IMG/VR virus record: IMGVR_UViG_3300031998_000051
Location: 13,819-77,818 of that record
Length of the DNA stretch: 64,000 nt
Source: a virus
Lineage: Duplodnaviria; Caudoviricetes
Direction: 5' to 3' (one strand)
Part shown: positions 3,681 to 37,819 of the stretch, piece by piece
How positions within the stretch are numbered: position 1 is the first letter of the stretch
How the letters are laid out: the number at the start of each line of letters is the position of its first letter
Program-made: the position numbers and the translations under genes
The notes under the pieces: generated by a model
Database searches by the model: none
Told to the model about the DNA's origin: nothing
What the model saw: the letters and a program-made list of their open reading frames with translations, nothing else

Positions 3681-5434
3681 TATATCGAGTTTTGATGAAT
3701 GGACAGGACATCTTCAATCCGCAGGAAAGACAATATGCTTTGATCGAACCACATCTTTCAGTGGAACTGAATACCGCTGGGAGCTTTGAGTTTACCATGC
3801 ACCCTTCACATCCGTTCTATGACAGCGTGAATGCATTCACCTCCATGATCGATGTGTTTGAAAGTGAAGTGTTGCTGTGGTTCGGTCGGCCTATTGAAAT
3901 CACAACCGATTTCTATAACCAGAAAAAGGTATACTGTGAAGGAGCGTTAGCATTCTTCAATGACAGTATCCAGCGCCCATACGAGTATACCAGCATCTCA
4001 ATTCGCACATTCTTCCAAACTGTGATTGCAAATCACAATGCCCAGGTAGACAGCTATAAACAATTCACGGTTGGGAACATCACGATAGAGGATAAGAAAG
4101 TTTATCGCAAACTCGACTATGGCAGCACATTTGACTGTTTGAAGAAACAATGTCTGGATGCTGTGGGCGGTTATTTCTTCTTCCGGCGCGAGAATGGCGT
4201 GAACTATATCGACTGGCTGGCCGAGATGCCATACTCGACCAACCAGCCGGTTGAATTCGGTCTGAATATGCTGGATGCTTCTACAGAATTCGATATGACG
4301 GAATTCTGCACGGTTGTGCTGCCTATTGGCGATGAAGTGGATGGTGCAAGGCTGACGGTGGCAAGCGTGAACGACGGCAGTGACATCATAGAAAGCGATG
4401 CCGTATCAGAGTATGGCAAGATCGTCAAGTGTGTGGAGTTTTCGGGCGTAACTCATGCCGATACGCTATACGAAGATGGCGTGGAATATCTTCAAAACAG
4501 GCAGTTTGACAACATGACCATCGAATGCACAGCTGCGGAGCTGCATTGGCAAAACGAGAACTATACGCTGTTTCGGCTTGGCCAGAAGGTTCATGCGCAT
4601 TCTGTTCCACATATCATCGACAAGAATTTCGATCTAATGAAGCTGGATATTTCACTGGACACGGCAGAAAAGCAGATCACGCTCGGTACATACCGCAGGC
4701 CGACTCTGACGGAGATCACCAATGATGCAGGTTCGACTGCTGATCTTGGCGACATAACAGAACAATTATCTGACATCAGTAGCATCATAGATGGCATTAC
4801 AGACGTGCCTACCGTAGATGACATCACGGGAGACATTCGAGACACTCTGGATGATATTGATGATCTGCTTGATGATGAGGGTTTCCATGACCATATCCAA
4901 GACTTATTGGACGATAATGATTTAGATGACTGGCTGATCGACCACGGAGTACCGGAAGATGAATTGGATGATGTCACGCCAGAAGACGTCATTAATTATA
5001 TTCAAGAGGATATTGAAGAAATAACCGTTGATCTTGGCGATGCTGAGGACTATGACGACCTTAGTGACATAAACGATGATCTTGGCGACTATTGGAGCGA
5101 CAATGAAACTATTTTCAATTATGATACCAGCGGCGGCGGTAGTAGTAGCTACAGCGATATTGGCGGTAAGATATCCGGCACAAGCAGCACGATCAGTGGT
5201 GCCACAGATGACGGATCGCTTGCAGAAGTCAAAGCTCAGCTCACAGAGCTGACCAAGCGTGTTGATAGCTTGCGCGACTACAACGAGCTGATGGCTGCTT
5301 GGGAGAAAGAAGTTGATAAAAAGCTCGCAGACCTCGAAGAGCTGGTTGATGCCATTGCCAAGGATGCCTGGGTGCATGAGATCGACGGCGAGCGCGTTGA
5401 AGTTGGCATCGTGAACTTCGTGACCAATGTTTAA
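3677..5434 (+). CDS. Baseplate hub / Tal-like minor tail protein with acidic C-terminal extension
   Basis: Position after Dit; LNTAGSFEFT and EFGLNMLD..T.V.P.G motifs of prophage tail proteins; Asp-rich coiled C-terminus. Confidence 0.75.
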   Translation: MIYRVLMNGQDIFNPQERQYALIEPHLSVELNTAGSFEFTMHPSHPFYDSVNAFTSMIDVFESEVLLWFGRPIEITTDFYNQKKVYCEGALAFFNDSIQRPYEYTSISIRTFFQTVIANHNAQVDSYKQFTVGNITIEDKKVYRKLDYGSTFDCLKKQCLDAVGGYFFFRRENGVNYIDWLAEMPYSTNQPVEFGLNMLDASTEFDMTEFCTVVLPIGDEVDGARLTVASVNDGSDIIESDAVSEYGKIVKCVEFSGVTHADTLYEDGVEYLQNRQFDNMTIECTAAELHWQNENYTLFRLGQKVHAHSVPHIIDKNFDLMKLDISLDTAEKQITLGTYRRPTLTEITNDAGSTADLGDITEQLSDISSIIDGITDVPTVDDITGDIRDTLDDIDDLLDDEGFHDHIQDLLDDNDLDDWLIDHGVPEDELDDVTPEDVINYIQEDIEEITVDLGDAEDYDDLSDINDDLGDYWSDNETIFNYDTSGGGSSSYSDIGGKISGTSSTISGATDDGSLAEVKAQLTELTKRVDSLRDYNELMAAWEKEVDKKLADLEELVDAIAKDAWVHEIDGERVEVGIVNFVTNV

Positions 5435-28362: not shown

Positions 28363-28833
28363 ATGGCGAACAATGAAGCTTTGCTCGACTGGGATGACGT
28401 CTTGACGGAAGACGGTCAAGAATTTAACAGCTTGCCGGAAGGCGATTATACCTTCACGGTGACCAATTTCGAGCGCTCCTGGTATAAAGGCTCTGACAAG
28501 CTGCCGCCCTGCAATCAGGCCGAGATCACCGTGGAGATCGACAACAATATCGGCTACGCCATCAGCAAATTCAAGCTGCATATGGTGAAGCGCCTGGAAT
28601 GGAAACTGTCGGCTTTCTTCCGCTGCATCGGCCAGAAGAAGCACGGCGAACAGCTGAAACCCGACTGGAGCACCGTGGTAGGTTCTCGCGGCAAGGCGCA
28701 CTTCAAGCCGAGGAAAGGCACGAACACCGACAGCGACCGCACCTTCAACGAACTCGACAAGTTCTATGACTGGGATGAATCGGTCGGCATGAAGCCCGTC
28801 GGCGACGATGAGGATATGCCGTGGAATGACTGA
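28363..28833 (+). CDS. Single-stranded DNA-binding protein (DUF669-like)
   Basis: LPEGDYTFTV..FER pattern; acidic C-terminus DDEDMPWND; follows Sak4. Confidence 0.75.
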   Translation: MANNEALLDWDDVLTEDGQEFNSLPEGDYTFTVTNFERSWYKGSDKLPPCNQAEITVEIDNNIGYAISKFKLHMVKRLEWKLSAFFRCIGQKKHGEQLKPDWSTVVGSRGKAHFKPRKGTNTDSDRTFNELDKFYDWDESVGMKPVGDDEDMPWND

Positions 28834-30226
28834 TATGCAGGTGGTTATTGACAGCGCCATCCGCGTCACGGATCCAACCGTTGAGCTTCAAGAGTGGTGC
28901 AGGGCAGAGCTCGTCCAGATCAATCCTGATTTCATCAAAAAGGAAAAAATGGGTTTCTGGACGGGCAAAACGCCCGAGAAAATCCGCTTCTACGAAGTGC
29001 GCGGGAATACCTGGATTCTTCCATTCGGACTGATGAAGCGCCTGCGCGGATTGATTGATTTCAGGACCGTGCAAAGTGGATTCCAGCCCATTCAGTATGT
29101 GGATTACGGCGAGCCGTTGCCGCTTTACGATTACCAGCAGAAAGCAATGGATGAAACCGTCGCCGCTGGTTACGGAATCCTTCAAGCTCCTGCCGGAAGC
29201 GGAAAGACCGAAATCGGTGTTGCTATGATCAAGAAGTTCAGACGGACGGCGTTATGGCTGGCAACGACCCACGATCTGCTGAAACAGGCAAAGGAACGCG
29301 CTGAGCGGTACATGGACAAGAGCCTGATAGGGACCATCACGGGCGGCAAGGTGGACATCGGCAAGGGCGTAACCTTTGCGACGATCCAGACCATGAGCAA
29401 GCTCAATCTGGAAGACTACAAGCATCAATGGGATTGCATAATTGTCGATGAGTGCCATCATGTGGCTGCCAGTGCGAACAGCGCCACAATGTTCTACAAA
29501 GTGCTGATGAACCTGTCAGCTCGCCACAAGTACGGATTATCGGCAACTGTGCATCGCGCTGACGGCCTGATAAAATCCACATTCTCATTGCTTGGCAATG
29601 TGGTTTGCACCGTACCGAAGTCGGCAGTAGCCAACAAGATCATGCCGGTGGGCATCATCCAGGTGGAGACCAATGCGGAGATGCCGGAAGACTGCATGAG
29701 GGATGACCGGGTGGATTATACCAAGCTCATCAATGCGCTATGCGAGGACGAAGAACGCAATTGCACCATCATCGATCATCTGATCAATAACGGAGCATAT
29801 TCGTGCCTGATACTTTCCGACCGTCTCACCCATCTCGAAACGCTGATGGCAGAATTGCCGGAAGATATGCGGGATAAAGCGGTGATGATCTCCGGCAAGA
29901 TGGTCAGCAAGAAAGCCAAAGCAGAGCGCGACAATGCCATCGAGCAAATGCGAACCGGCGAGAAGCGTTACCTATTCGCAAGCTACAACCTGGCTAAGGA
30001 AGGTCTCGATATCCCAAGGCTTGAGCGCTTGTTTCTGACAACGCCGCAGAAGGATTTTGCGGTAGTGGTGCAGAGCGTCGGGCGTATCGCAAGAATCTTT
30101 GACGGCAAGGCCGATCCGATTGCCTATGATTTTGTAGACAACAATATCGGGATGATGATCGGAATGGCCAGGAAGCGGGCGCGAATCTACACCGAGAACA
30201 ATTGCTATTTTATCGAGAAAGGATAA
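28826..30226 (+). CDS. SF2 DEAD/ResIII-like helicase
   Basis: LYDYQ, APAGSGKT, IVDECHH, GLSAT, LAKEGLDIPRL, QSVGRIAR. Confidence 0.92.
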   Translation: MTDMQVVIDSAIRVTDPTVELQEWCRAELVQINPDFIKKEKMGFWTGKTPEKIRFYEVRGNTWILPFGLMKRLRGLIDFRTVQSGFQPIQYVDYGEPLPLYDYQQKAMDETVAAGYGILQAPAGSGKTEIGVAMIKKFRRTALWLATTHDLLKQAKERAERYMDKSLIGTITGGKVDIGKGVTFATIQTMSKLNLEDYKHQWDCIIVDECHHVAASANSATMFYKVLMNLSARHKYGLSATVHRADGLIKSTFSLLGNVVCTVPKSAVANKIMPVGIIQVETNAEMPEDCMRDDRVDYTKLINALCEDEERNCTIIDHLINNGAYSCLILSDRLTHLETLMAELPEDMRDKAVMISGKMVSKKAKAERDNAIEQMRTGEKRYLFASYNLAKEGLDIPRLERLFLTTPQKDFAVVVQSVGRIARIFDGKADPIAYDFVDNNIGMMIGMARKRARIYTENNCYFIEKG

Positions 30227-30235
30227 ACAAATGGC

Positions 30236-32278
30236 ATGGATAGCGTCACAGAGAGAAGGGTCTTAGCAGCGCTTGAAGCCATCCCTGTTGCGGATCTTAC
30301 GCGGGATGATTGGATCGCTGTTGGTATGGCTTTGAAGGATGAGGGATTCTCTGTTGGCGTCTGGGATGATTGGAGCCGGAATGACCGCCGATATCACCAG
30401 GGCGAATGCCAGAAAAAATGGGATGGCTTCAAGGGCAGCTCAAAGCCCAAGACAATAGCGACTGTTTTCCAGATGGCGAAGGAACGCGGCTGGACAGAAT
30501 TCGACGGCAATGCAGCGATTGGATGGGATGATGCCATTGAATACGATGGTGATGAATCGGGATTACCGAGTACAGCACCAAAGAAAAACTGGGATCCCGT
30601 TCAAGACCTGATTACTTACCTGGAAACGCTTTTCAAGCCGGATGAGAAGGTCGCTTACATCACGAATGAAGTCTGGAAGAACGATGATGGCAAATGGGTA
30701 CCGAGCGGAAAGGGCGTTTATAATCGGACAGTCGGAGAGCTGATCCAATCGCTTAGAAAGCATCCTGATGACATCGGCGCGACAGTTGGCGATTATAAGC
30801 CGGAAGCCGGAGCATGGATTCGCGTCAATCCCGTAGACGGTAACGGCGTCAAGAACGACAACGTCACCAGCTTCCGATATACGCTGGTTGAATCCGATAT
30901 CTTGCCGATTGCGGAACAGAATGCACTTTTCCGCAAGATGGAATTACCAATAGCGGCGATGGTTCACAGCGGTGGGAAATCGCTTCATGCGATTGTTCAT
31001 ATCGACGCTGGCAGCTATGAAGAATACCAGAAGCGCGTGGAATACCTCTACAGCTTCATGGAAAAGAACGGAATAGCGATTGACAAACAGAATCGCAACC
31101 CATCACGACTGAGCCGAATGCCCGGTATCATGCGAGGTGGGAATCGGCAATACCTGGTAGCAACCAATATCGGGCGCAAGAGCTGGAACGACTGGATGGA
31201 ATTCGCGGAAGGCTCATCTGATGAACTGCCTGGCATTGTTGAATTGTCCGACTTGCTTGCGGATCCGCCGCCGTTGGCACCGACATTGATTGATGGAGTC
31301 CTCCGGCGCGGACATAAGATGCTGATCTCCGGCAGCAGTAAAGCCGGTAAATCGTTTCTGCTGATGCAATTAGCTGTAGCGATTGCGGAAGGTCAACAAT
31401 GGCTCGGCTTCCAGTGTTCGCAAGGGCGCGTGCTTTACGTCAATCTGGAAATCGATAAGGCATCATGCGCTAACCGATTCGCCGTAATCCGCAAAGAACT
31501 CAAGACCCGCAATGTCTATGAATGCAGTCACGAGAACAATCTTCTGATCTGGAATCTTCGCGGATACGCTGTGCCATTAGATTTATTGGTGCCAAAGCTG
31601 ATCCACAGAACACGGGACTTGAATCTGGACGCCATCATCATTGACCCAATCTACAAGGTCATTACGGGCGATGAGAATAACGCCAGCGATATGGGCGCGT
31701 TCTGCAACCAGTTCGACAAGATCGCCACGGAGCTGGGCGCGGCGGTGATCTACTGCCACCACCACAGCAAAGGCGCACAAGGAGCCAAACGGGCGATGGA
31801 CAGGGCGTCAGGCTCCGGCGTGTTCGCCAGGGACCCGGATGCGCAGTTGGACTTGCTGGAGGTCGAATTAAGCGATGCACAGTTATTCTCCTTCGGAGGC
31901 AACAACGTCACGGCTTTTCGATTGGAAAGCTCACTACGTGAATTTCCGAACTTCAAACCAATCAACATCTGGTTTGAGTATCCGCTTCACAGAGTGGATA
32001 AAGATGGCGTTTTAAGGGACGCACCCGCACAGGGAACGCCAGCGGCAGGACGCACAAAGAACAAGCACAGCCAGACCGCAACGGATGCACGATTGGCCTT
32101 TGACAACGCTTACGATGTTCTGAACATGGACGGCGACAGCGTTTCAGCGGACGAGATGGCGAGTTACCTTGAGCAGGATGTCAAAACGATCTACCGCAAA
32201 GCAAGAGATTACGACGGATACGTACTGGACAAAAAGCGGGTTTACCGCATAGGTGGTGAAACGAATGACGGAGATTGA
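30236..32278 (+). CDS. Primase-helicase (PriCT-2, primase domain, AAA_25/RepA)
   Basis: DDWIAVGMALK PriCT; VESD and VHSGGKSLHA; GSSKAGKS, IIIDPIYK, CHHHSKG. Confidence 0.88.
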   Translation: MDSVTERRVLAALEAIPVADLTRDDWIAVGMALKDEGFSVGVWDDWSRNDRRYHQGECQKKWDGFKGSSKPKTIATVFQMAKERGWTEFDGNAAIGWDDAIEYDGDESGLPSTAPKKNWDPVQDLITYLETLFKPDEKVAYITNEVWKNDDGKWVPSGKGVYNRTVGELIQSLRKHPDDIGATVGDYKPEAGAWIRVNPVDGNGVKNDNVTSFRYTLVESDILPIAEQNALFRKMELPIAAMVHSGGKSLHAIVHIDAGSYEEYQKRVEYLYSFMEKNGIAIDKQNRNPSRLSRMPGIMRGGNRQYLVATNIGRKSWNDWMEFAEGSSDELPGIVELSDLLADPPPLAPTLIDGVLRRGHKMLISGSSKAGKSFLLMQLAVAIAEGQQWLGFQCSQGRVLYVNLEIDKASCANRFAVIRKELKTRNVYECSHENNLLIWNLRGYAVPLDLLVPKLIHRTRDLNLDAIIIDPIYKVITGDENNASDMGAFCNQFDKIATELGAAVIYCHHHSKGAQGAKRAMDRASGSGVFARDPDAQLDLLEVELSDAQLFSFGGNNVTAFRLESSLREFPNFKPINIWFEYPLHRVDKDGVLRDAPAQGTPAAGRTKNKHSQTATDARLAFDNAYDVLNMDGDSVSADEMASYLEQDVKTIYRKARDYDGYVLDKKRVYRIGGETNDGD

Positions 32279-32507
32279 GAAGAAGATTTTCGGCGATATG
32301 TACCGATTCGCCGAATCCCACGGAATACCACCGCCGAAGAACACCAAAGCCTGTGACGCTTACTGGAAAAAGATGCACGATGACGCCATCGAGCTGATCG
32401 GCGCGAAGTACAGCAACTATCCATTGGCGGTGCAGATGATGGTGGCGATTATCGAATACCGGGAAGAACAGCAGCATGCTGTGAACAGAAAGAGAGGTTT
32501 GGAGTAA
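32265..32507 (+). CDS. Hypothetical protein
   Basis: Helical 80-aa ORF overlapping the primase stop. Confidence 0.6.
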   Translation: MTEIEKKIFGDMYRFAESHGIPPPKNTKACDAYWKKMHDDAIELIGAKYSNYPLAVQMMVAIIEYREEQQHAVNRKRGLE

Positions 32508-32762
32508 TGGATAAGACCATGATTGCGTGGAAGAAGCACCTGAGCCGTCAGAGCGCAAAGCGCAAGGCCGCGAACAAGGCGGCGAAGATGTCCCGCAAAG
32601 CACAGCGCAAGTGAGGTGACGGGCGATGTTGAAATGGGTAGAGCCATTCATGTGGGCTTACATCAGGGTGATTGCATTCTGGCTTCAGCTGGTGGGCTGC
32701 ATTGGATTGATTGGATTTATGGTTGTCGGATTAGACAACGCAATGAATAAGCTGGTGGAGGA

Positions 32763-33197
32763 ATGATAATGGAACAAGGAATCATCATTCAGTTTCGTGA
32801 CAGCGACAAGGTGAGTATCTACAATCCCTGCTTCGATGTGACGCGCAACGAACTGGACATTGCGCTGAAGTCGGCGGTATCGGAGATGATCGACAAGGAT
32901 CTTACCAATTCCTCGGTGACGCTCAAACTGGACATTTGCGCCACTACCGAGGCGGTCGCTGATCGAAACGCACAGTCGGGATGCCGCGAGGCAAAGAACA
33001 TCGAGATCGGCGCGAAGGTCGGCTATACGCTTCAGTTCAAGAGCGAAGCCAAGTTCGACGTTGTCAGCGCGAAGCATGGCAAAGAACTGGTGATGGACAG
33101 CCAGGGCGAGTATTCCATGGTTTCGCACGAAGAAGCATCCGGGCAGCTTTCTATGTTCAATTCGTGGAACGAGTACAAGGCTGCCATGGAGCAGTAG
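32763..33197 (+). CDS. Hypothetical protein
   Basis: GGAGG RBS; 144 aa. Confidence 0.7.
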   Translation: MIMEQGIIIQFRDSDKVSIYNPCFDVTRNELDIALKSAVSEMIDKDLTNSSVTLKLDICATTEAVADRNAQSGCREAKNIEIGAKVGYTLQFKSEAKFDVVSAKHGKELVMDSQGEYSMVSHEEASGQLSMFNSWNEYKAAMEQ

Positions 33198-33253
33198 AGA
33201 CACTCAAACAGCCAACAGGCTGACGGGATAGAGAGATTAAGGAGGATTTTGAA

Positions 33254-33988
33254 ATGGCTACCACCGCAAAGAAGAACACGGATTCTCAGGAAATCATCAT
33301 CAAGCCGGTTAAGATTCAGAAGGCCGACATCACCATCGTCGGCGACACGCCGCTGATCGTTCATGCCTGGTCGGAAAAGGCCAAGCGCGAGATGCTGGAA
33401 GCACAGCAGAAGTTGAAGAAAGACAAGAAGGCAAAGGAGATCAGGCTCCCGGCAAATGAGTTTGTGAGCGCGGCCTACTGGTTGACGCCTATGCCGGAGC
33501 TTGGAACCGATCCCAGCGGCAAGGACACGCTTGCCAACTTTGAAAAGGCCATCGCAGCGGGCGCGAAGTTCGGCTTTCCGATCACGGCCATCAAGCAGGC
33601 GGCATTGGCGGCTTGCTACCGCGCAGGCATCATTCCCAACCAGATGGGCATGAAATGCAGCTTCTACCTCAACAGCAAGGACGGTGTCAACCTCGGCACC
33701 GGTTCCGAGCTGGCGGTGATCCAGTCCGACAATCCGCCGGTGATGCGTGAGGATATGGTCAAAATCGGCGGCGTGTCCAAGACGGCTGATTTGCGTTACC
33801 GCCCTATGTTCACCGATTGGAAAATCGATTTGACGGTCAGCCTGATTGATGTCGGCGTGTTCACGATGGAGTCGATCATCAATGCGATCAACCTTTCGGG
33901 TTACATGGGCGGCATCGGCGAATGGCGCATGGAGCGCGATGGTGACTTCGGCCACTACCATGTGGAGATTGATGGAGAGAGGGTGTAA
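33254..33988 (+). CDS. RAMP/Cas7-like RNA-binding protein (Vipr-like effector candidate)
   Basis: N-terminal ITIVGDTPLIVH strand, FPITAIKQAA helix (cf. RAMP IPGSSLKG), C-terminal Gly-rich loop SGYMGGIGEWRMERDGDFGHYHV; two genes upstream of the pentamer array. Confidence 0.72.
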   Translation: MATTAKKNTDSQEIIIKPVKIQKADITIVGDTPLIVHAWSEKAKREMLEAQQKLKKDKKAKEIRLPANEFVSAAYWLTPMPELGTDPSGKDTLANFEKAIAAGAKFGFPITAIKQAALAACYRAGIIPNQMGMKCSFYLNSKDGVNLGTGSELAVIQSDNPPVMREDMVKIGGVSKTADLRYRPMFTDWKIDLTVSLIDVGVFTMESIINAINLSGYMGGIGEWRMERDGDFGHYHVEIDGERV

Positions 33989-33990
33989 TC

Positions 33991-34473
33991 TTGGCAGCGT
34001 TTGAATGCAAGTATTCGTACCGTGTGCCTGGGCTTCAAAAGGCTCCGGCAGAGGTTGCGGGCAAAGTGTTCGAGGAGCTGGCGAACAGTGAAAAAGGCTT
34101 ATCGCCAAAGACGCTGGTAGATGCCAGCCGGGACGAGAATGCGCCGCTCCACGGAGAATTCGAATGGCGCGACGATGTGGCAGCAGAGAAATACCGCCTG
34201 TCTCAAGCGCAGGGCATTATCCAGAATCTGCGCATCGTGACAGTGCAGGCCGATGGTAGCGAGGCAATGGATCGTGCGTTTGTGGTTAAGCCTGGCGGCG
34301 AGAGCAATTATGTGGCGTTGCAAAGCGCATTGAGCCGTGAAGACTGGAAAGACCATCTGCTCGAAGAAGCCAGACGCGACGTCAAATGCTTCTTAGGCAA
34401 GTATCGCCGTTTGCGTGCTTTGTCTGGGATAACAAGTGCGATGGAGCAGTTTCTCCATAATGATGTCGGTTGA
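33991..34473 (+). CDS. Conserved partner protein between the RAMP-like gene and the array
   Basis: TTG start 2 nt after the previous stop; LSPKTLVDASRDENAPLHGEFEWRDDVAAEKYRLSQAQGII motif. Confidence 0.75.
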   Translation: MAAFECKYSYRVPGLQKAPAEVAGKVFEELANSEKGLSPKTLVDASRDENAPLHGEFEWRDDVAAEKYRLSQAQGIIQNLRIVTVQADGSEAMDRAFVVKPGGESNYVALQSALSREDWKDHLLEEARRDVKCFLGKYRRLRALSGITSAMEQFLHNDVG

Positions 34474-34480
34474 CGGTTGC

Positions 34481-35541
34481 GTAGGGCTCCGTTATAAAAA
34501 AGCCTGAGACATGGTAAGGATTGGCGGGTTGGAGTTAGGTATGGCGGCGAGGGTTATGGCAGTCGAGGATAGGCGCGGAAAGTTGCGGTTGCGCGGAGTA
34601 TGGCAAGGCACGGTATGGCAGTCTCGGAGGGGCACGTTAGTGCGCGGAGGGGCTTGCTCCGGATGCGAGGGGCTTGTCAAGGCAGTCTTGGAACGTTTCG
34701 GTTCGGTGCGTACAGGTGTTGCACGGTAAGGCTGGGCAGTCTTGGTTCGGTTAGGCATGGAGCTGTTAGTTCCGGCTTGATGAGGCAGTCGAGGATGGGT
34801 CAGGCGCGTAAACGGTGCGGCATGGTGCGGTCCGGCGCGGCAGTCGTGGACAGGAATGCAATGTCAATGTGAGTATAGGCATGATGCGGATCTGAACGGT
34901 GTGGCAGTAATGGATCGGTCAGTCGCGTAAAGGCGCGGCGGCGCACGGTTAGGCAGTCTCGGATGGGCAGTGCGATGTTACGGATGGTTCCGGCAATGTT
35001 CGGCTGGGCGCTGCAAGGCTTGGCAGTCTCGGATTGTTTCGGCGATGCTCGTTGAGGCAAAGCTGGGTATGGCAGTCTTGGAATGTCAGCGCGTGTTGAC
35101 GATTGCACCGGCGCGGCAGGAATGCCACGGGTTATGTAGGGCTCCCGGTCAACAAAAGCCCGAGACATGGAGAGTAGAGGCTGGTCTGTGTTTGGTATGG
35201 TTTGAAGAGGTATGGCAGTCGTGGACAGGAACGGATCGGTCAGTCCCGTATCGTTAAAGCAAGTAGGGTATCGGTTCGGTTTGGCAGTTAAGGACAGGAC
35301 AGGCTTGGAAGGTATGGTGGGTTTTGCATTGTATCGGATAGTTTTGTCATGGCAGTCAAGGCGAGGCGCGGAAGTGAGTGGCTTGTCGCGGATTCGCACG
35401 GAGTGTATCTGTGTGGCAGTTCTGGAAGCGATGGGTTAGGCTCGTACAGGCAAGGTAACGCGGGTTGTGGCAGCCGAGGATAGTTGCGGACGCGCCTGTC
35501 AAGTTGGTGCCTGGTGAGCCGTGTTGGGACAAGGCAGTCAC
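34481..35541 (+). ncRNA. Array of 17 pentamer-periodic (GGY-NN-like) units separated by GGCAGTC-NN, in two leader-headed sub-arrays
   Basis: GGCAG(T) junctions at 34558, 34617, 34681, 34735, 34784, 34839, 34903, 34952, 35022, 35071, 35115, 35214, 35283, 35351, 35415, 35469, 35533; 12 of 15 intervals equal 5n+4 nt. Confidence 0.88.
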
Positions 35542-35586
35542 GGAAATTCTGTAAGATTGGAGGTAACAACAACGGATATAAGAAGC

Positions 35587-36024
35587 GTGAGCTTCACTGT
35601 TCCGGGTGAGCCTGTCGGTAAGGCTCGCCCGAAAACAGTGAACATAAAGAACAGGGCTACAACGGTAACGTTCACGCCGGAGAAAACGGTGATATATGAA
35701 AACCTTGTGAAGGTCGAGTATCAACAACAATGCCATAACTTCTACTTCGGTGAGAAGCAACCATTGATAATGGAGATCATCTGTTATTACGGAATGCCGA
35801 AGTCTGACAGCAAGAAAAAACGGGCCGCGAAGCTGGCTGGAGAGATCAGGCCAACGAAGAAGCCGGACATCGACAACTGCATCAAAGCCATTGCAGATTC
35901 TTTGAACACTATCGCATACAAGGATGATACGCAAATCGTAAAGGTGGTTGCGGAAAAACGATATTCGGAGAAGCCCAGAGTGGAGATTACGATTTCGGAC
36001 ATAAATGAGGAGGACGGCAGATGA
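35587..36024 (+). CDS. rusA: RusA-like Holliday junction resolvase
   Basis: FTVPGEPVGKARP, KKPDIDNCIKAIADSLN..AYKDD.QIV. Start codon uncertain. Confidence 0.88.
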   Translation: MSFTVPGEPVGKARPKTVNIKNRATTVTFTPEKTVIYENLVKVEYQQQCHNFYFGEKQPLIMEIICYYGMPKSDSKKKRAAKLAGEIRPTKKPDIDNCIKAIADSLNTIAYKDDTQIVKVVAEKRYSEKPRVEITISDINEEDGR

Positions 36025-36897
36025 AACCCTACCCTATCACGTCTCCCGATCATTTGCGTGACCTCACGAAAATGGTCAAGTGGGACAAGGACAAGAAGGC
36101 CATATGGGATTTCGCCGATGACTGGTTTCGGAAAGGCGATCAGCGCCAGGTTACGCTTGAAGTCGGCAGTAGCGCCCAGGTGGTCTACACCACCGACAAG
36201 AAGCGGATCGTGCTGGCGACGCTGTATCAGCGGGCGGCAAAGGACTATGTGAACGGAGTGAGGGTATGAGCCATCTTCGCATACCGCAGCTCAAGGAGCG
36301 CTGGCACAATATTCCGCGCAATGAGGAAGTTGTCATCGCGCTTTGTCAGACACCGCACATTCAGCTTCATAATGGCAGGGCATACGACACCAAGGATGCG
36401 GATCCTGCGATGCTGGATTACTATCATCGGATGGAGCAGAGCGCATTGATGAAGCATGATAATCGAAAAGTTATCAACTCCACACACTTTCTGGAACTTG
36501 CAGAGAAGTACAGGCAGAGACGGGAGAGCATGGAAGCGATTTTGAAGGAGCTGGATGAATGATTTACATGACACAGATTCAGCTGAAAACCGCGCTGGAT
36601 GATATTCCGACAAGTGAAAACATCAATATTGCCCTGTGCAGTGTTCCGGCATATCAGGTAAACGGTATTGATACATATGAGCGCAGGCGGGCAGCGGAAG
36701 CAATCGCGTTATTCTATCGCCGGAGGGCAAGCGAGAACTGGGAAAAGGATCGCCGCAGCTATTCGAAAAAGAAGAAAACACGGCACTATGCCGACATGGC
36801 CAGAAACTGGCTCAAAAAGGCGCAGGCCATTGAGAGAATCATTCTGAAGTGGGACATGGAGGAGAAGCCGGATGAACATTATCAAGCCGTCATTTGA
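36021..36897 (+). CDS. Three overlapping hypothetical genes (36021-36269, 36266-36562, 36559-36897)
   Basis: ATGA-type coupled ORFs with protein-like composition. Confidence 0.55.
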
Positions 36898-37819
36898 GAT
36901 TCTGGAACGCGACGAGAAGCGCGGCGGACTGGCCATTATCGAACTGGCCGGACGCACCTGCTACAAGAGCGATCCGGGCAAGACGCCGGAGAGCGCCGAG
37001 AAGTTTGCCCGCGGGCTTATCAAGCGCCATCACAATTCCGTGCTGGAGCACGGCGATATGATTTTCGAAGTCAATGACAACATCTATGAAACGCTGCGCT
37101 CCATGCTCATTAACATTGATGACGCCGGTGAACCGGTGCCTATGCTGAACATGACGCGGATCGGCGGCAGGTGCATCGTCTCCGGCAACATTCGTGCATG
37201 GCGGGAACTGTTCGCCATCGGCGAACCGATCAGCATCGCATTCATCGGACACTTTGAACCGGTTTTCGTGAAGGGCTATGGATTCAGATTTGAGGAGTAT
37301 GTCGGAGAACCGCATATGTATGTCCGGCAGATCTTCTATAGCTCCCTTCATGAGTGCAATGAAAAGCTGGTGCATATCCGGCAGTCGGTTCGGTTTATCT
37401 GTGACCGCGCTATTCAGAATGAATTTGTGCGGCATCGCACGGCGAGCTTCAGCGTTGAGAGCAGCCGATACTGCAACTACTCGCAGGATCGTTTCAATAA
37501 CGAGATCACGGTCATTGAGCCGTCATTCCTGATTCCGGGAACCAAGGCATACAGGCTTTGGGAATCGTCCTGTGAGACCAATGAAGATGCGTATTTCATG
37601 CAGCTCAACGAAGGCTTGATGGCGCAGGAAGCCCGAAATGTTCTCCCGTTGTCGCTGAAAACCGAAATGGTTATGACCGGCAACCTTCGCGCCTGGAATC
37701 ATTTCTTCGATATGCGAGCGCGGCAGACTACCGGGCAAGCCCATCCGCAGGCGGTGGAGCTGGCGGCTCCATTGATGGGCGAAATGACTATGCGTTTCCC
37801 GGATGTCTTTGGCGAGTAG
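36872..37819 (+). CDS. thyX: FAD-dependent thymidylate synthase
   Basis: AGRTCYKS, HNSVLEHG, EFVRHRTASFSVESSRYCNY (RHRx7SxR motif), EARNVLP. Confidence 0.9.
   Translation: MNIIKPSFEILERDEKRGGLAIIELAGRTCYKSDPGKTPESAEKFARGLIKRHHNSVLEHGDMIFEVNDNIYETLRSMLINIDDAGEPVPMLNMTRIGGRCIVSGNIRAWRELFAIGEPISIAFIGHFEPVFVKGYGFRFEEYVGEPHMYVRQIFYSSLHECNEKLVHIRQSVRFICDRAIQNEFVRHRTASFSVESSRYCNYSQDRFNNEITVIEPSFLIPGTKAYRLWESSCETNEDAYFMQLNEGLMAQEARNVLPLSLKTEMVMTGNLRAWNHFFDMRARQTTGQAHPQAVELAAPLMGEMTMRFPDVFGE

What the first reader, a model, noticed from the sequence alone, without database searches (positions are those of the whole stretch)
34513..35541. 1-kb non-coding array of 5-nt-periodic GGY-NN units: candidate guide RNAs with a non-contiguous code
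Seen in sequence: 17 units, each closed by GGCAG(T). The junction consensus is GGCAGTC-NN-GGA (GGA follows 14 of 16 junctions). Between junctions the sequence parses into whole pentamers with a G-rich first three bases and variable last two, e.g. 34690-34734 GGAAC GTTTC GGTTC GGTGC GTACA GGTGT TGCAC GGTAA GGCTG. 12 of 15 junction intervals are 5n+4 (59,64,54,49,64,49,49,44,69,64,54,64; exceptions 55,70,68). A 5-nt period is incompatible with codon structure, and the units differ, so this is not a simple satellite. Inference: each unit is a guide RNA whose constant triplets are bound by successive subunits of the adjacent RAMP-like protein, while the NN pairs spell a gapped target (unit at 34626: GG,AC,AG,GC,GG,TT,CC,TG,GG,TT,AA). 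This matches my recollection of the recently described phage VIPR architecture, which I cannot verify here; it is not a CRISPR repeat-spacer array.
Basis: partly seen in the sequence, partly recalled or inferred. Interest (0 to 1): 0.97.

Follow-up and report, generated by a model that had tools for sequence, protein, structure and literature searches.

The report
Phage VIPR guide-RNA array, staggered type
This 1-kb stretch is the guide-RNA array of a phage VIPR system, a CRISPR-related RNA-guided DNA silencer first described in 2026 preprints, so it is a new example of a known kind; two of its 17 guides spell genes of rival phages.

Summary
Window 34508-35536 (+) holds 17 back-to-back units of 5-nt repeats (G, G/T, not-G, N, N), with identity peaks at lags 5, 10, 15 and 20 (z 6-7).

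- ORF 33254-33988 is a Vipr. A profile of it hits the solved SUSP1 Vipr (PDB 36pp) at E=1.8e-13, and its model (pLDDT 94) matches only Cas7-type RAMPs.
- ORF 33991-34473 is the accessory gene. It accompanies vipr in 107 of 115 related loci.
- Same-strand pentamer arrays follow vipr in 71 of 75 viral loci and 35 of 40 bacterial loci.
- The published 1-nt-skip rule holds. Across two sequence sets, 21 guides reach at least 90% match with skip 1, against 0, 0 and 1 for skips 0, 2 and 3.

Two window guides have targets. Guide 1 matches the G-loop codons of sister phages' vipr (19/20; own copy 17/20). Guide 8 matches a conserved helicase motif (18/18), and all 3 exact hits in IMG/VR lie in that motif.

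Units are separated only by a 4-nt GGC-A step, with no tail, which fits the published "staggered arrays".

Expression is untested and 15 guides have no target. The scan has noted VIPR in at least 44 other genomes. It is a new member of a known kind.

The parts
33254..33988 (+). vipr: 244-aa Cas7-like RAMP, the guide-binding subunit
   Evidence: phmmer hits PDB 36pp_D 'SUSP1 Vipr protein' at E=4.4e-5; a 90-sequence profile hits it at E=1.8e-13 over chain residues 52-189. The AF2 model has pLDDT 94.2. The top Foldseek hits listed (49 ranks shown of 500+, E up to 3e-3) are all CRISPR RAMPs: type VII Cas7, Csm3, Cmr4/6, Cas7-11, type IV Csf2 and type I-A Cascade. The SUSP1 residues that read GG align to conserved residues here: R138 to R183, D177 to E223, W178 to W224, R179 to R225. 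It matches phrog_4652.
33991..34473 (+). vap candidate: 160-aa accessory protein of unknown fold
   Evidence: tblastn finds a homolog next to vipr in 107 of 115 related loci. The order is vipr-array-vap in 78 and vipr-vap-array in 23, the latter as here. It matches phrog_15946. There is no Pfam or PDB match and no BLASTP similarity to the vap1 of the SUSP1-type phage Z31.
34470..34498 (+). possible sigma-70-type promoter TTGACG-17 nt-TATAAA, overlapping the vap stop codon
   Evidence: Read directly from the sequence; it would place the transcript start near 34505-34508, at the first unit. The consensus scan did not list it, because that scan requires T at the last -10 position. This is inference only.
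34484..34504 (+). leader hairpin 1 (GGGCU / A-rich loop / AGCCU), followed by GA|GACAU
   Evidence: RNAalifold on 7 leaders from the window, L006 and L007 gives 5 pairs, one of which is kept through changes on both sides in 2 sequences (CG to UA and AU).
34508..35118 (+). sub-array 1: 11 vrRNA units (plus one 2-pentamer remnant at 34956-34969), each n pentamers + GGC + A
   Evidence: Register caller and right-anchored parse; period-5 statistics.
34508..34560 (+). guide 1 (NN: AT AA TT GG GG TA AT GG GG AT), aimed at sister phages' vipr
   Evidence: With a 1-nt skip it matches 19/20 in the vipr of L006 (3237-3265) and L007 (10601-10629), in frame over the codons of INLGGF/YMGGI. Shuffled guides reach at most 17.
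33887..33915 (+). the phage's own vipr site homologous to the guide-1 target
   Evidence: It matches guide 1 at only 17/20. One whole NN unit is lost (GG to TC, Gly to Ser) and there is one Leu-codon change.
34907..34954 (+). guide 8 (NN: AT TC CA GC AA GC GG AC TA), aimed at a helicase motif of related phages
   Evidence: 18/18 with a 1-nt skip in L177:4353-4378(-) and L173. It scores 15-18/18 at the homologous site in 78 of 80 phages that share the primase. The whole-IMG/VR exact scan gives 3 hits, all in the codons of YVPAFAWEM. The homologous L006 guide hits the same site at 21/22.
35119..35163 (+). internal spacer with leader hairpin 2 (stem 35139-35143 / 35157-35161), which splits the array
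   Evidence: The same element as leader 1. L006 has 2 such leaders and L007 has 3.
35164..35536 (+). sub-array 2: 6 vrRNA units
31685..31716 (-). site in this phage's own primase/helicase gene that matches a guide of a rival phage
   Evidence: The guide at L008:11362 (that phage's Vipr is 68% identical) matches 20/22 with a 1-nt skip, codon-aligned over SDMGAFCNQFD.

Best explanation
The region is the vrRNA (guide RNA) array of a VIPR system carried by a 77.8-kb phage. Prophage relatives suggest the host is a gut or rumen Clostridia/Oscillospiraceae bacterium.

The module is vipr (33254-33988), vap (33991-34473) and two sub-arrays with 17 guides in all. Each guide is 8-13 pentamers of the form G-G/U-H-N-N.

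By analogy with the solved SUSP1 complex, one Vipr protomer binds each pentamer. It holds the first three bases and presents the two N bases. The concatenated NN pairs then pair with double-stranded DNA in which every third base is skipped (target NNxNNx...). In coding targets this puts the read bases on codon positions 1-2 and the skipped base on the wobble position. Binding is expected to silence transcription of the target.

This array is of the tail-less 'staggered' kind. Guides abut and are separated only by GGC-A, a 4-nt step that shifts the pentamer register by -1. That shift would interrupt the protein filament and so mark where one guide ends and the next begins.

At least two guides are aimed at rival phages. 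Guide 1 targets the G-loop-coding part of the vipr gene of the closest sister phages, while the phage's own copy is recoded. Guide 8 targets a conserved C-terminal motif of the ResIII/DEAD helicase in a broad group of phages that share this phage's primase; this phage's own helicase lacks the motif.

What is shown: protein homology and fold, array grammar, co-occurrence, and skip-1 target enrichment. What is inferred: transcription, processing at GGC|A, filament assembly, repression, and self-immunity by recoding.
For: Homology and fold. The profile hits the PDB chain of SUSP1 Vipr at E=1.8e-13. The pLDDT-94 model matches only Cas7-type RAMPs. The GG-contacting residues named in the cryo-EM paper align to residues that are conserved in these alignments (R183 and R225 invariant in all 90 sequences; E223 and W224 invariant in the closer set).

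Array grammar. Period 5 has z about 7. The pentamer profile in the window agrees with the family-wide profile over 4077 pentamers: G 92%, G/T 93%, Y 88%, N, N.

Co-occurrence. An array follows vipr on the same strand in 71/75 viral loci and 35/40 bacterial loci. vap is present in 107/115 loci.

Skip rule. 331 unique guides were scanned against 1.2 Mb of related phage DNA. At 90% NN match or better, skip 1 gave 11 guides against 0, 0 and 1 for skips 0, 2 and 3; shuffled guides gave 0-1. A second, independent 0.97-Mb set gave 10 against 0, 0 and 0, with shuffled guides at 1-2.

Targets are codon-aligned with the skipped base at wobble. Several of the mismatches I inspected lie at the first base of a codon, and some fit a Leu TT/CT or Arg AG/CG alternative.

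Guide 1 matches 19/20 in sister vipr genes and 17/20 in its own. Guide 8 matches 18/18; its only 3 exact matches among 2.9 million IMG/VR contigs all lie in the same helicase motif.

The genome is a virus record, and the module sits between a primase/helicase gene and RusA and ThyX genes.
Against: There is no expression or processing data; the sequencing-run tool could not be used.

Fifteen of the 17 guides have no identified target. Four exact-pattern scans of IMG/VR and three 3-mismatch scans of the four closest relatives' whole records (plus the L177 contig) found nothing.

The pentamers are looser than the published GGY: only 32% are strict GGY, and position 3 is A in 28%.

The phage's own vipr still matches guide 1 at 85%. 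That is above the 80% cut-off the discovery paper used to call targets, so self-avoidance is not demonstrated.

The paper states that the staggered architecture, unlike the ribozyme and single-guide types, was not confirmed by small-RNA sequencing.

Scanning the guides against bacterial-genome loci gave no clear enrichment.
Confidence: 0.88

Rival explanations
1. The array is transcribed and bound by Vipr, but most units are decoys or sponges, or decayed copies. Only a few guides would be functional; the degenerate pentamers (GT, CG or AG in place of GG) would mark dead units.
For: Only 2 of 17 guides have targets. Per-unit conformity to G-G/T is 0.54-0.92. Three units have internal register slips (intervals of 55, 70 and 68). 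The October 2026 paper describes satellite-borne vrRNAs that redirect VIPR to decoy sites.
Against: [quoted passage not shown] Guide 1 itself has conformity of only 0.70 and still has a 19/20 target. The lack of targets is most simply explained by the small databases searched with mismatches allowed.
Confidence: 0.07
2. A DNA-level element rather than an RNA gene: a G-rich, period-5 tract (GG every 5 nt) that forms two-tetrad G-quadruplexes or acts as a protein-binding iteron array in replication or packaging. It lies in the replication module.
For: The strand is 40% G with GG spaced 5 nt apart. It sits between the primase/helicase and RusA genes.
Against: This does not explain three things: the strict linkage to a Cas7-like gene in more than 100 loci of unrelated genome contexts; the hypervariable positions 4-5; or why the NN pairs read with exactly one skipped base spell conserved codons of other phages. 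Homologs of the protein are experimentally shown to bind such RNAs.
Confidence: 0.02
3. A VIPR array that guides cleavage or another activity by the accessory protein, rather than transcriptional silencing. This would resemble the published types III-V, whose vap genes encode nucleases or helicases.
For: The vap here has no recognisable family and is unrelated in sequence to the DNA-binding vap1 of SUSP1-type phages, so its activity is open.
Against: At 160 aa with no nuclease or helicase motif found by Pfam at E<=0.01, it is small for an enzyme. In the literature the nuclease-bearing types are enriched in host defence islands, not in phages.
Confidence: 0.1

Closest known systems
VIPR systems with 'staggered' vrRNA arrays (bioRxiv 10.64898/2026.04.26.720920, fig. 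S18 legend; type number not determinable from the held text)
   Same: A lone Vipr RAMP plus one accessory gene in a phage. [quoted passage not shown] There is no CRISPR array and no cas1/cas2.
   Different: The paper did not confirm the staggered type by small-RNA sequencing, and the figure itself is not held. Whether its '1-nt overlapping positions' equal the GGC-A 4-nt step found here is therefore my reading. This locus also has leader hairpins that split the array, and a looser third position (H rather than Y).
Type II VIPR of Escherichia phage SUSP1 and relatives such as Shigella phage Z31 (PDB 36pp; bioRxiv ...720920, ...720927, 10.64898/2026.10.15.759431)
   Same: The Vipr is homologous (E=1.8e-13 by profile; 31% identity over the C-terminal 83 residues to the Z31 protein). 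The gene order vipr-vap-array is the same. The 1-nt-skip target rule is the same, as are codon-aligned targets and guides aimed at relatives' vipr genes.
   Different: SUSP1-type vrRNAs are about 100 nt, are separately spaced, and each ends in a constant tail of about 35 nt with a pseudoknot. Here the units are 44-69 nt, abut each other and have no tail. This Vipr is 244 aa against 195-202 aa. The vap proteins show no sequence similarity. This locus has 17 guides; SUSP1 has 4.
Class 1 CRISPR-Cas backbone (Cas7, Csm3, Cmr4 filaments on crRNA)
   Same: The fold is the same (Foldseek E down to 2.8e-5). The logic is the same: one subunit per fixed number of guide nucleotides, with a thumb that breaks the pairing periodically.
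   Different: The step is 5 nt with 2 read bases, rather than 6 nt with 5 read bases. There are no repeat-spacer arrays, no adaptation genes and no Cas5, Cas6, Cas8 or Cas10. It is phage-borne.

Membership tests
VIPR system | A Vipr protein: a minimal RAMP (RRM core, glycine-rich loop, thumb) homologous to characterised Viprs | tested here: met
   PDB 36pp_D SUSP1 Vipr at E=4.4e-5 (single sequence) and E=1.8e-13 (profile). The AF2 model has pLDDT 94, and the top Foldseek hits listed are all CRISPR RAMPs (Cas7, Csm3, Cmr4/6, Csf2 and the like). The G-loop GGIGEWR aligns to CGVGDWR of SUSP1.
VIPR system | vrRNA genes made of tandem GGY/NN (YNNGG) pentamers, at least 4 units, next to vipr | tested here: met
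   17 units of 8-13 pentamers lie 520 nt downstream of vipr on the same strand. The consensus is G, G/T, H, N, N. It is looser than GGY, but the paper allows 'a related consensus' and internal degeneracy.
VIPR system | A minimal locus: vipr plus one accessory gene (vap), with no CRISPR array and no other cas genes | tested here: met
   The neighbours are a primase/helicase, a DEAD helicase, RusA and ThyX. There is no tandem or CRISPR-like repeat. The 160-aa ORF is linked to vipr in 107/115 loci.
VIPR system | Noncontiguous targeting: the NN pairs match DNA with exactly one skipped base | tested here: met
   This is computational evidence only. Skip 1 gives 11 and 10 guides at 90% match or better in two sequence sets, against 0-1 for skips 0, 2 and 3 and 0-2 for shuffled guides. 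Window guides 1 and 8 match 19/20 and 18/18.
VIPR system | vrRNAs are expressed, processed and co-purify with Vipr; binding represses transcription | not testable with these tools
   No RNA data could be obtained. This needs small-RNA sequencing, pull-down and reporter assays.
VIPR system | Viral or proviral genome context | tested here: met
   G000 is a 77.8-kb virus record. Relatives are IMG/VR contigs and prophage-like regions of Clostridia and Alphaproteobacteria genomes.
Type II VIPR (SUSP1 / P. fulva clade) | Each vrRNA ends in a constant 3' tail that folds into a conserved structure (a pseudoknot in the SUSP1 clade) | tested here: not met
   Units are separated by only GGC-A. The Z31 locus shows the tails clearly for comparison. 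The locus should therefore not be filed as type II.
Ribozyme-interspersed VIPR arrays (types I and V examples) | Hammerhead ribozymes between vrRNAs | tested here: not met
   An Rfam scan of 32000-37000 at E<=1 gave no match, and there is no room for a ribozyme between units.
CRISPR array | Identical direct repeats of 24-48 nt separated by unique spacers | tested here: not met
   TRF found nothing. The only constant string is about 7-12 nt long (GGCAGTCnnGGA).

The most novel reading that the evidence does not exclude
In this large clade, guide boundaries may be encoded solely by a -1 register slip. One 4-nt GGC-A step among the 5-nt repeats would break the Vipr filament and expose the junction to cleavage. 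A single transcript could then be cut into many guides with no tail, ribozyme or Cas6-like enzyme.

In addition, the phages appear to form a reciprocal targeting network. This phage aims at its sisters' vipr gene and at a helicase motif it lacks, protects its own vipr by recoding one Gly codon, and is itself targeted in its primase by a rival's guide.
Probability: 0.35. Interest if true: 0.55.

Novelty: new member of a known kind. Interest (0 to 1): 0.4.

Why it matters
VIPR was published only in 2026, and its experiments cover type II systems of E. coli and Pseudomonas phages.

This locus extends the 1-nt-skip code, by computation, to a distant clade with thousands of metagenomic members (4225 proteins at E<=1e-3). 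That clade belongs to gut and rumen Firmicutes phages and uses the tail-less staggered architecture, which has not been validated experimentally.

The locus offers concrete, testable guide-target pairs. The targets are replication genes (helicase, DNA polymerase A, primase) and the rivals' own vipr. It also offers a simple hypothesis for how guides are punctuated.

The compact grammar of 45-70-nt guides with no tail could be of practical interest for multiplexed programmable repression.

Tried and rejected
- Single-sequence AlphaFold gave pLDDT 35 and was unusable. It was replaced by a run with a 90-sequence alignment.
- megablast of the locus against GenBank phages found no match.
- The search for related loci with the single protein in genome contigs found nothing. 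A closer alignment worked.
- The Rfam scan found no family, and ARAGORN found no tRNA.
- The promoter and terminator scan found no + strand site. The TTGACG-17-TATAAA reading is mine and is weak.
- vap was compared with Pfam, PDB sequences, the ESM Atlas and Z31 vap1. No function emerged.
- Exact-pattern scans of IMG/VR for guides at 34621, 35218, 34685 and 34562 gave 0 hits.
- Scans allowing 3 mismatches, over the whole records of the four closest relatives plus L177, for guides at 34621, 35218 and 35355 gave 0 hits.
- Scanning all guides against 0.6 Mb of bacterial-genome loci gave no clear skip-1 enrichment: 3 short guides against 0-1.
- The genome search 'relatives' is not available for a virus record.
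- My first guide extraction, anchored on GGCAG as a pentamer, omitted the first NN. It was corrected after the family-wide register analysis.
- Protein-coding was rejected. The long antisense ORF 33032-34108 and the ORFs listed inside the array are by-products of the skewed composition. The + strand vipr has thousands of homologs.

Full report
**Observation**

Window 34513-35541 is 40% G and 18% C on the + strand. Base identity peaks at lags 5, 10, 15 and 20 (z = 6.8, 7.4, 7.1 and 6.2 against shuffles) and has troughs at lags 2, 3, 7 and 12.

Anchoring on the 17 junction GGCAG strings parses almost all of the sequence into whole pentamers. Over 177 pentamers, position 1 is G in 79%, position 2 is G in 65% and T in 22%, position 3 is not G in 94%, and positions 4-5 are essentially random.

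Tandem Repeats Finder reports nothing, so the units are not copies of each other. No comparable pentamer run exists anywhere else in the 77,818-bp genome on either strand.

**Refined grammar**

A register-tracking caller was run on 75 related viral loci together with this phage's own genome. It shows that units are joined by one 4-nt step. Of 682 called units, 425 end in the partial pentamer GGC and 418 start after a single A.

In the window the first pentamer of each unit is GTCNN (GACAU after a leader) and the second is usually GGANN.

Over 4077 pentamers the family profile is G 92%, G/T 93%, C/T 88%, N, N. This is the published GGY/NN motif.

The array is split into two sub-arrays (34508-35118 and 35164-35536). 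Each is preceded by a short hairpin plus GA|GACAU. In 7 leaders the 5-bp stem is kept, with two sequences changed on both sides of one pair.

**The proteins**

ORF 33254-33988 has no Pfam family. It matches phrog_4652 and has 4225 metagenomic homologs.

It hits the PDB chain 36pp_D, 'SUSP1 Vipr protein', at E=4.4e-5 alone and at E=1.8e-13 as a 90-sequence profile. With that alignment AlphaFold gives pLDDT 94.2. The top Foldseek hits listed (49 ranks shown of more than 500) are all CRISPR RAMPs: type VII Cas7, Csm3, Cmr4/6, Cas7-11, type IV Csf2 and type I-A Cascade.

The residues that the cryo-EM paper names as reading the two guanines (R138, D177, W178, R179) align to R183, E223, W224 and R225. 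R183 and R225 are invariant across the 90-sequence alignment, and E223 and W224 are invariant in the closer 23-sequence alignment.

C173, one of the residues lining the pyrimidine pocket in SUSP1, aligns to a glycine here. This may explain why A is tolerated at position 3, but that is inference.

ORF 33991-34473 has no family and no PDB relative. A homolog lies beside vipr in 107 of 115 related loci. It comes after the array in 78 loci and before it in 23, the latter as here. That linkage makes it the accessory gene (vap). It shows no similarity to the vap1 of the SUSP1-type phage Z31.

**Co-occurrence**

A same-strand, G-rich, period-5 array starts at or just after the end of vipr in 71 of 75 IMG/VR loci. 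The same holds for 35 of 40 loci in bacterial genomes. Most of the exceptions are short or truncated contigs, though a few (for example L035 and L059) have ample sequence downstream of vipr.

The nearest bacterial contexts are gut and rumen Oscillospiraceae, Acutalibacteraceae and other Clostridia MAGs. More distant ones are Alphaproteobacteria.

**What is known**

The held library contains three 2026 preprints on VIPR. According to these:
- Vipr is a minimal RAMP that polymerises one protomer per GGYNN repeat.
- It sequesters GGY and presents NN.
- The NN pairs recognise double-stranded DNA with every third base skipped.
- The systems are mostly viral and silence rival mobile elements, including other VIPR systems.
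[quoted passage not shown] The paper says small-RNA sequencing confirmed the ribozyme and single-guide types, and it does not say so for the staggered type.

**Test of the code**

I took 331 unique guides called from the related loci and the window. I scanned them against 1.2 Mb of those loci plus this genome, with all arrays masked, using skips of 0-3 and shuffled NN order. At 90% NN match or better, skip 1 gave 11 guides. Skips 0, 2 and 3 gave 0, 0 and 1, and shuffled guides gave 0-1.

A second, independent 0.97-Mb set of phages sharing this phage's primase gave 10 for skip 1 against 0, 0 and 0. Shuffled guides gave 1-2.

The hits are codon-aligned with the skipped base at wobble. Several of the mismatches I inspected lie at the first base of a codon, and some fit a Leu TT/CT or Arg AG/CG alternative. 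This fits the published idea that the code tracks codon periodicity.

Six guides from different phages converge on the DNA polymerase A gene of L007. Four of them hit one site at about 4247-4290, and the other two hit nearby sites.

**Targets of this array**

Guide 1 (34508-34560) matches 19/20 in the vipr genes of the two closest sister phages, L006 and L007, whose Viprs are 91-92% identical to this one. The match is in frame over the G-loop codons. Shuffled guides reach 17 at most. The phage's own vipr matches 17/20, having lost one whole NN unit through a Gly-to-Ser change.

Guide 8 (34907-34954) matches 18/18 in two phages. It scores 15-18/18 at the homologous site in 78 of 80 primase-sharing phages. 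The site encodes YVP(A/T)FAWEM in the C-terminal extension of a ResIII/DEAD helicase. The window's own helicase (28808-30226) has no such motif.

An exact scan of all IMG/VR contigs found three matches to guide 8, all in that motif. The sister phage L006 keeps a homologous, longer guide that hits the same site at 21/22.

In the other direction, a guide of phage L008 matches this phage's primase gene at 20/22 (window 31685-31716). A guide of L066 matches G000:3576-3607 at 20/22.

The other 15 guides have no target in what I could search.

**Mechanism proposed**

The array would be transcribed either from the vipr-vap operon or from a possible TTGACG-17-TATAAA promoter at 34470-34498, which is my reading and was not called by the scan. 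Vipr filaments would assemble on each run of pentamers. The 4-nt GGC-A step puts the next run out of register, so filaments end there and the junction is cut. This is inference, consistent with the 'staggered' legend.

Each ribonucleoprotein would then bind rival-phage DNA by the 1-nt-skip rule and block transcription of replication genes or of the rival's own vipr. The role of vap is unknown.

**Verdict**

This is a genuine VIPR locus of the staggered, tail-less architecture. It is not type II: there is no 3' tail. It is not a ribozyme array and not CRISPR.

The kind is already published, and earlier notes of this scan report it in at least 44 other genomes. It is therefore a new member of a known kind.

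It adds three things: skip-1 evidence for a large Firmicutes-phage clade, two concrete guide-target pairs, and a punctuation hypothesis. Expression and function remain untested.

Noticed in passing
L007:3900-4840 (IMGVR_UViG_3300028832_002712): Six guides from six different phages (L045, L054, L056, L061, L065, L067) and one from L006 converge on the DNA polymerase A gene of this sister phage. Four of them hit the same site, which encodes GKVAELALGYGG. It looks like a hot spot of inter-phage targeting.
   Followed up: partly
window 31685-31716 (-), and G000:3576-3607 (before the window): This phage is itself a predicted target. A guide of L008 matches its primase gene at 20/22, and a guide of L066 matches a gene near the left end of the genome at 20/22. 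Both use a 1-nt skip.
   Followed up: partly
window 34484-34504 and 35139-35161; L006 and L007 leaders: A short hairpin with an A-rich loop, followed by GAGAC, precedes every sub-array. The stem covaries (GGGCU/AGCCC, GGGAU/AUCCC, GGGUU/AACCU). In L008 and L009 it is replaced by AGCU-GAAA-AGCU, overlapping the vap stop codon. Its role (5' end formation, promoter context or filament stop) is unknown.
   Followed up: partly
L011, L016, L044 and most loci with Vipr 52% identical or less: Gene order differs between clades: vipr-array-vap in 78 loci and vipr-vap-array in 23. In the former the array begins within a few bases of the vipr stop codon.
   Followed up: yes
window 34956-34969; L006 (L001:4042-4055): A 2-pentamer mini-unit (GTCTC GGATG GGC A) is conserved between the window and its sister phage. 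It is too short to be a guide; it may be a remnant or a spacer.
   Followed up: no
window 33032-34108 (-): A 358-aa antisense ORF spans the whole vipr gene. A longest-ORF gene caller would pick it over the real + strand genes. The ORFs listed inside the array (for example 34800-35399, -) are likewise by-products of composition.
   Followed up: partly
window 35521-36024: The RusA resolvase ORF as listed starts at a GTG inside the last guide unit. The Pfam match begins at residue 28, so the true start is probably downstream, after the GGAGG at about 35560.
   Followed up: no
Mycobacterium and Gordonia phages (e.g. Donkeykong, Ecliptus, UmaThurman), Cyanophage Cy-LDV1: Cultured actinobacteriophages and a cyanophage encode full-length homologs of this Vipr (28-31% identity), annotated as hypothetical proteins. 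These are possible isolate-based models for this branch of VIPR. I did not check them for arrays.
   Followed up: no
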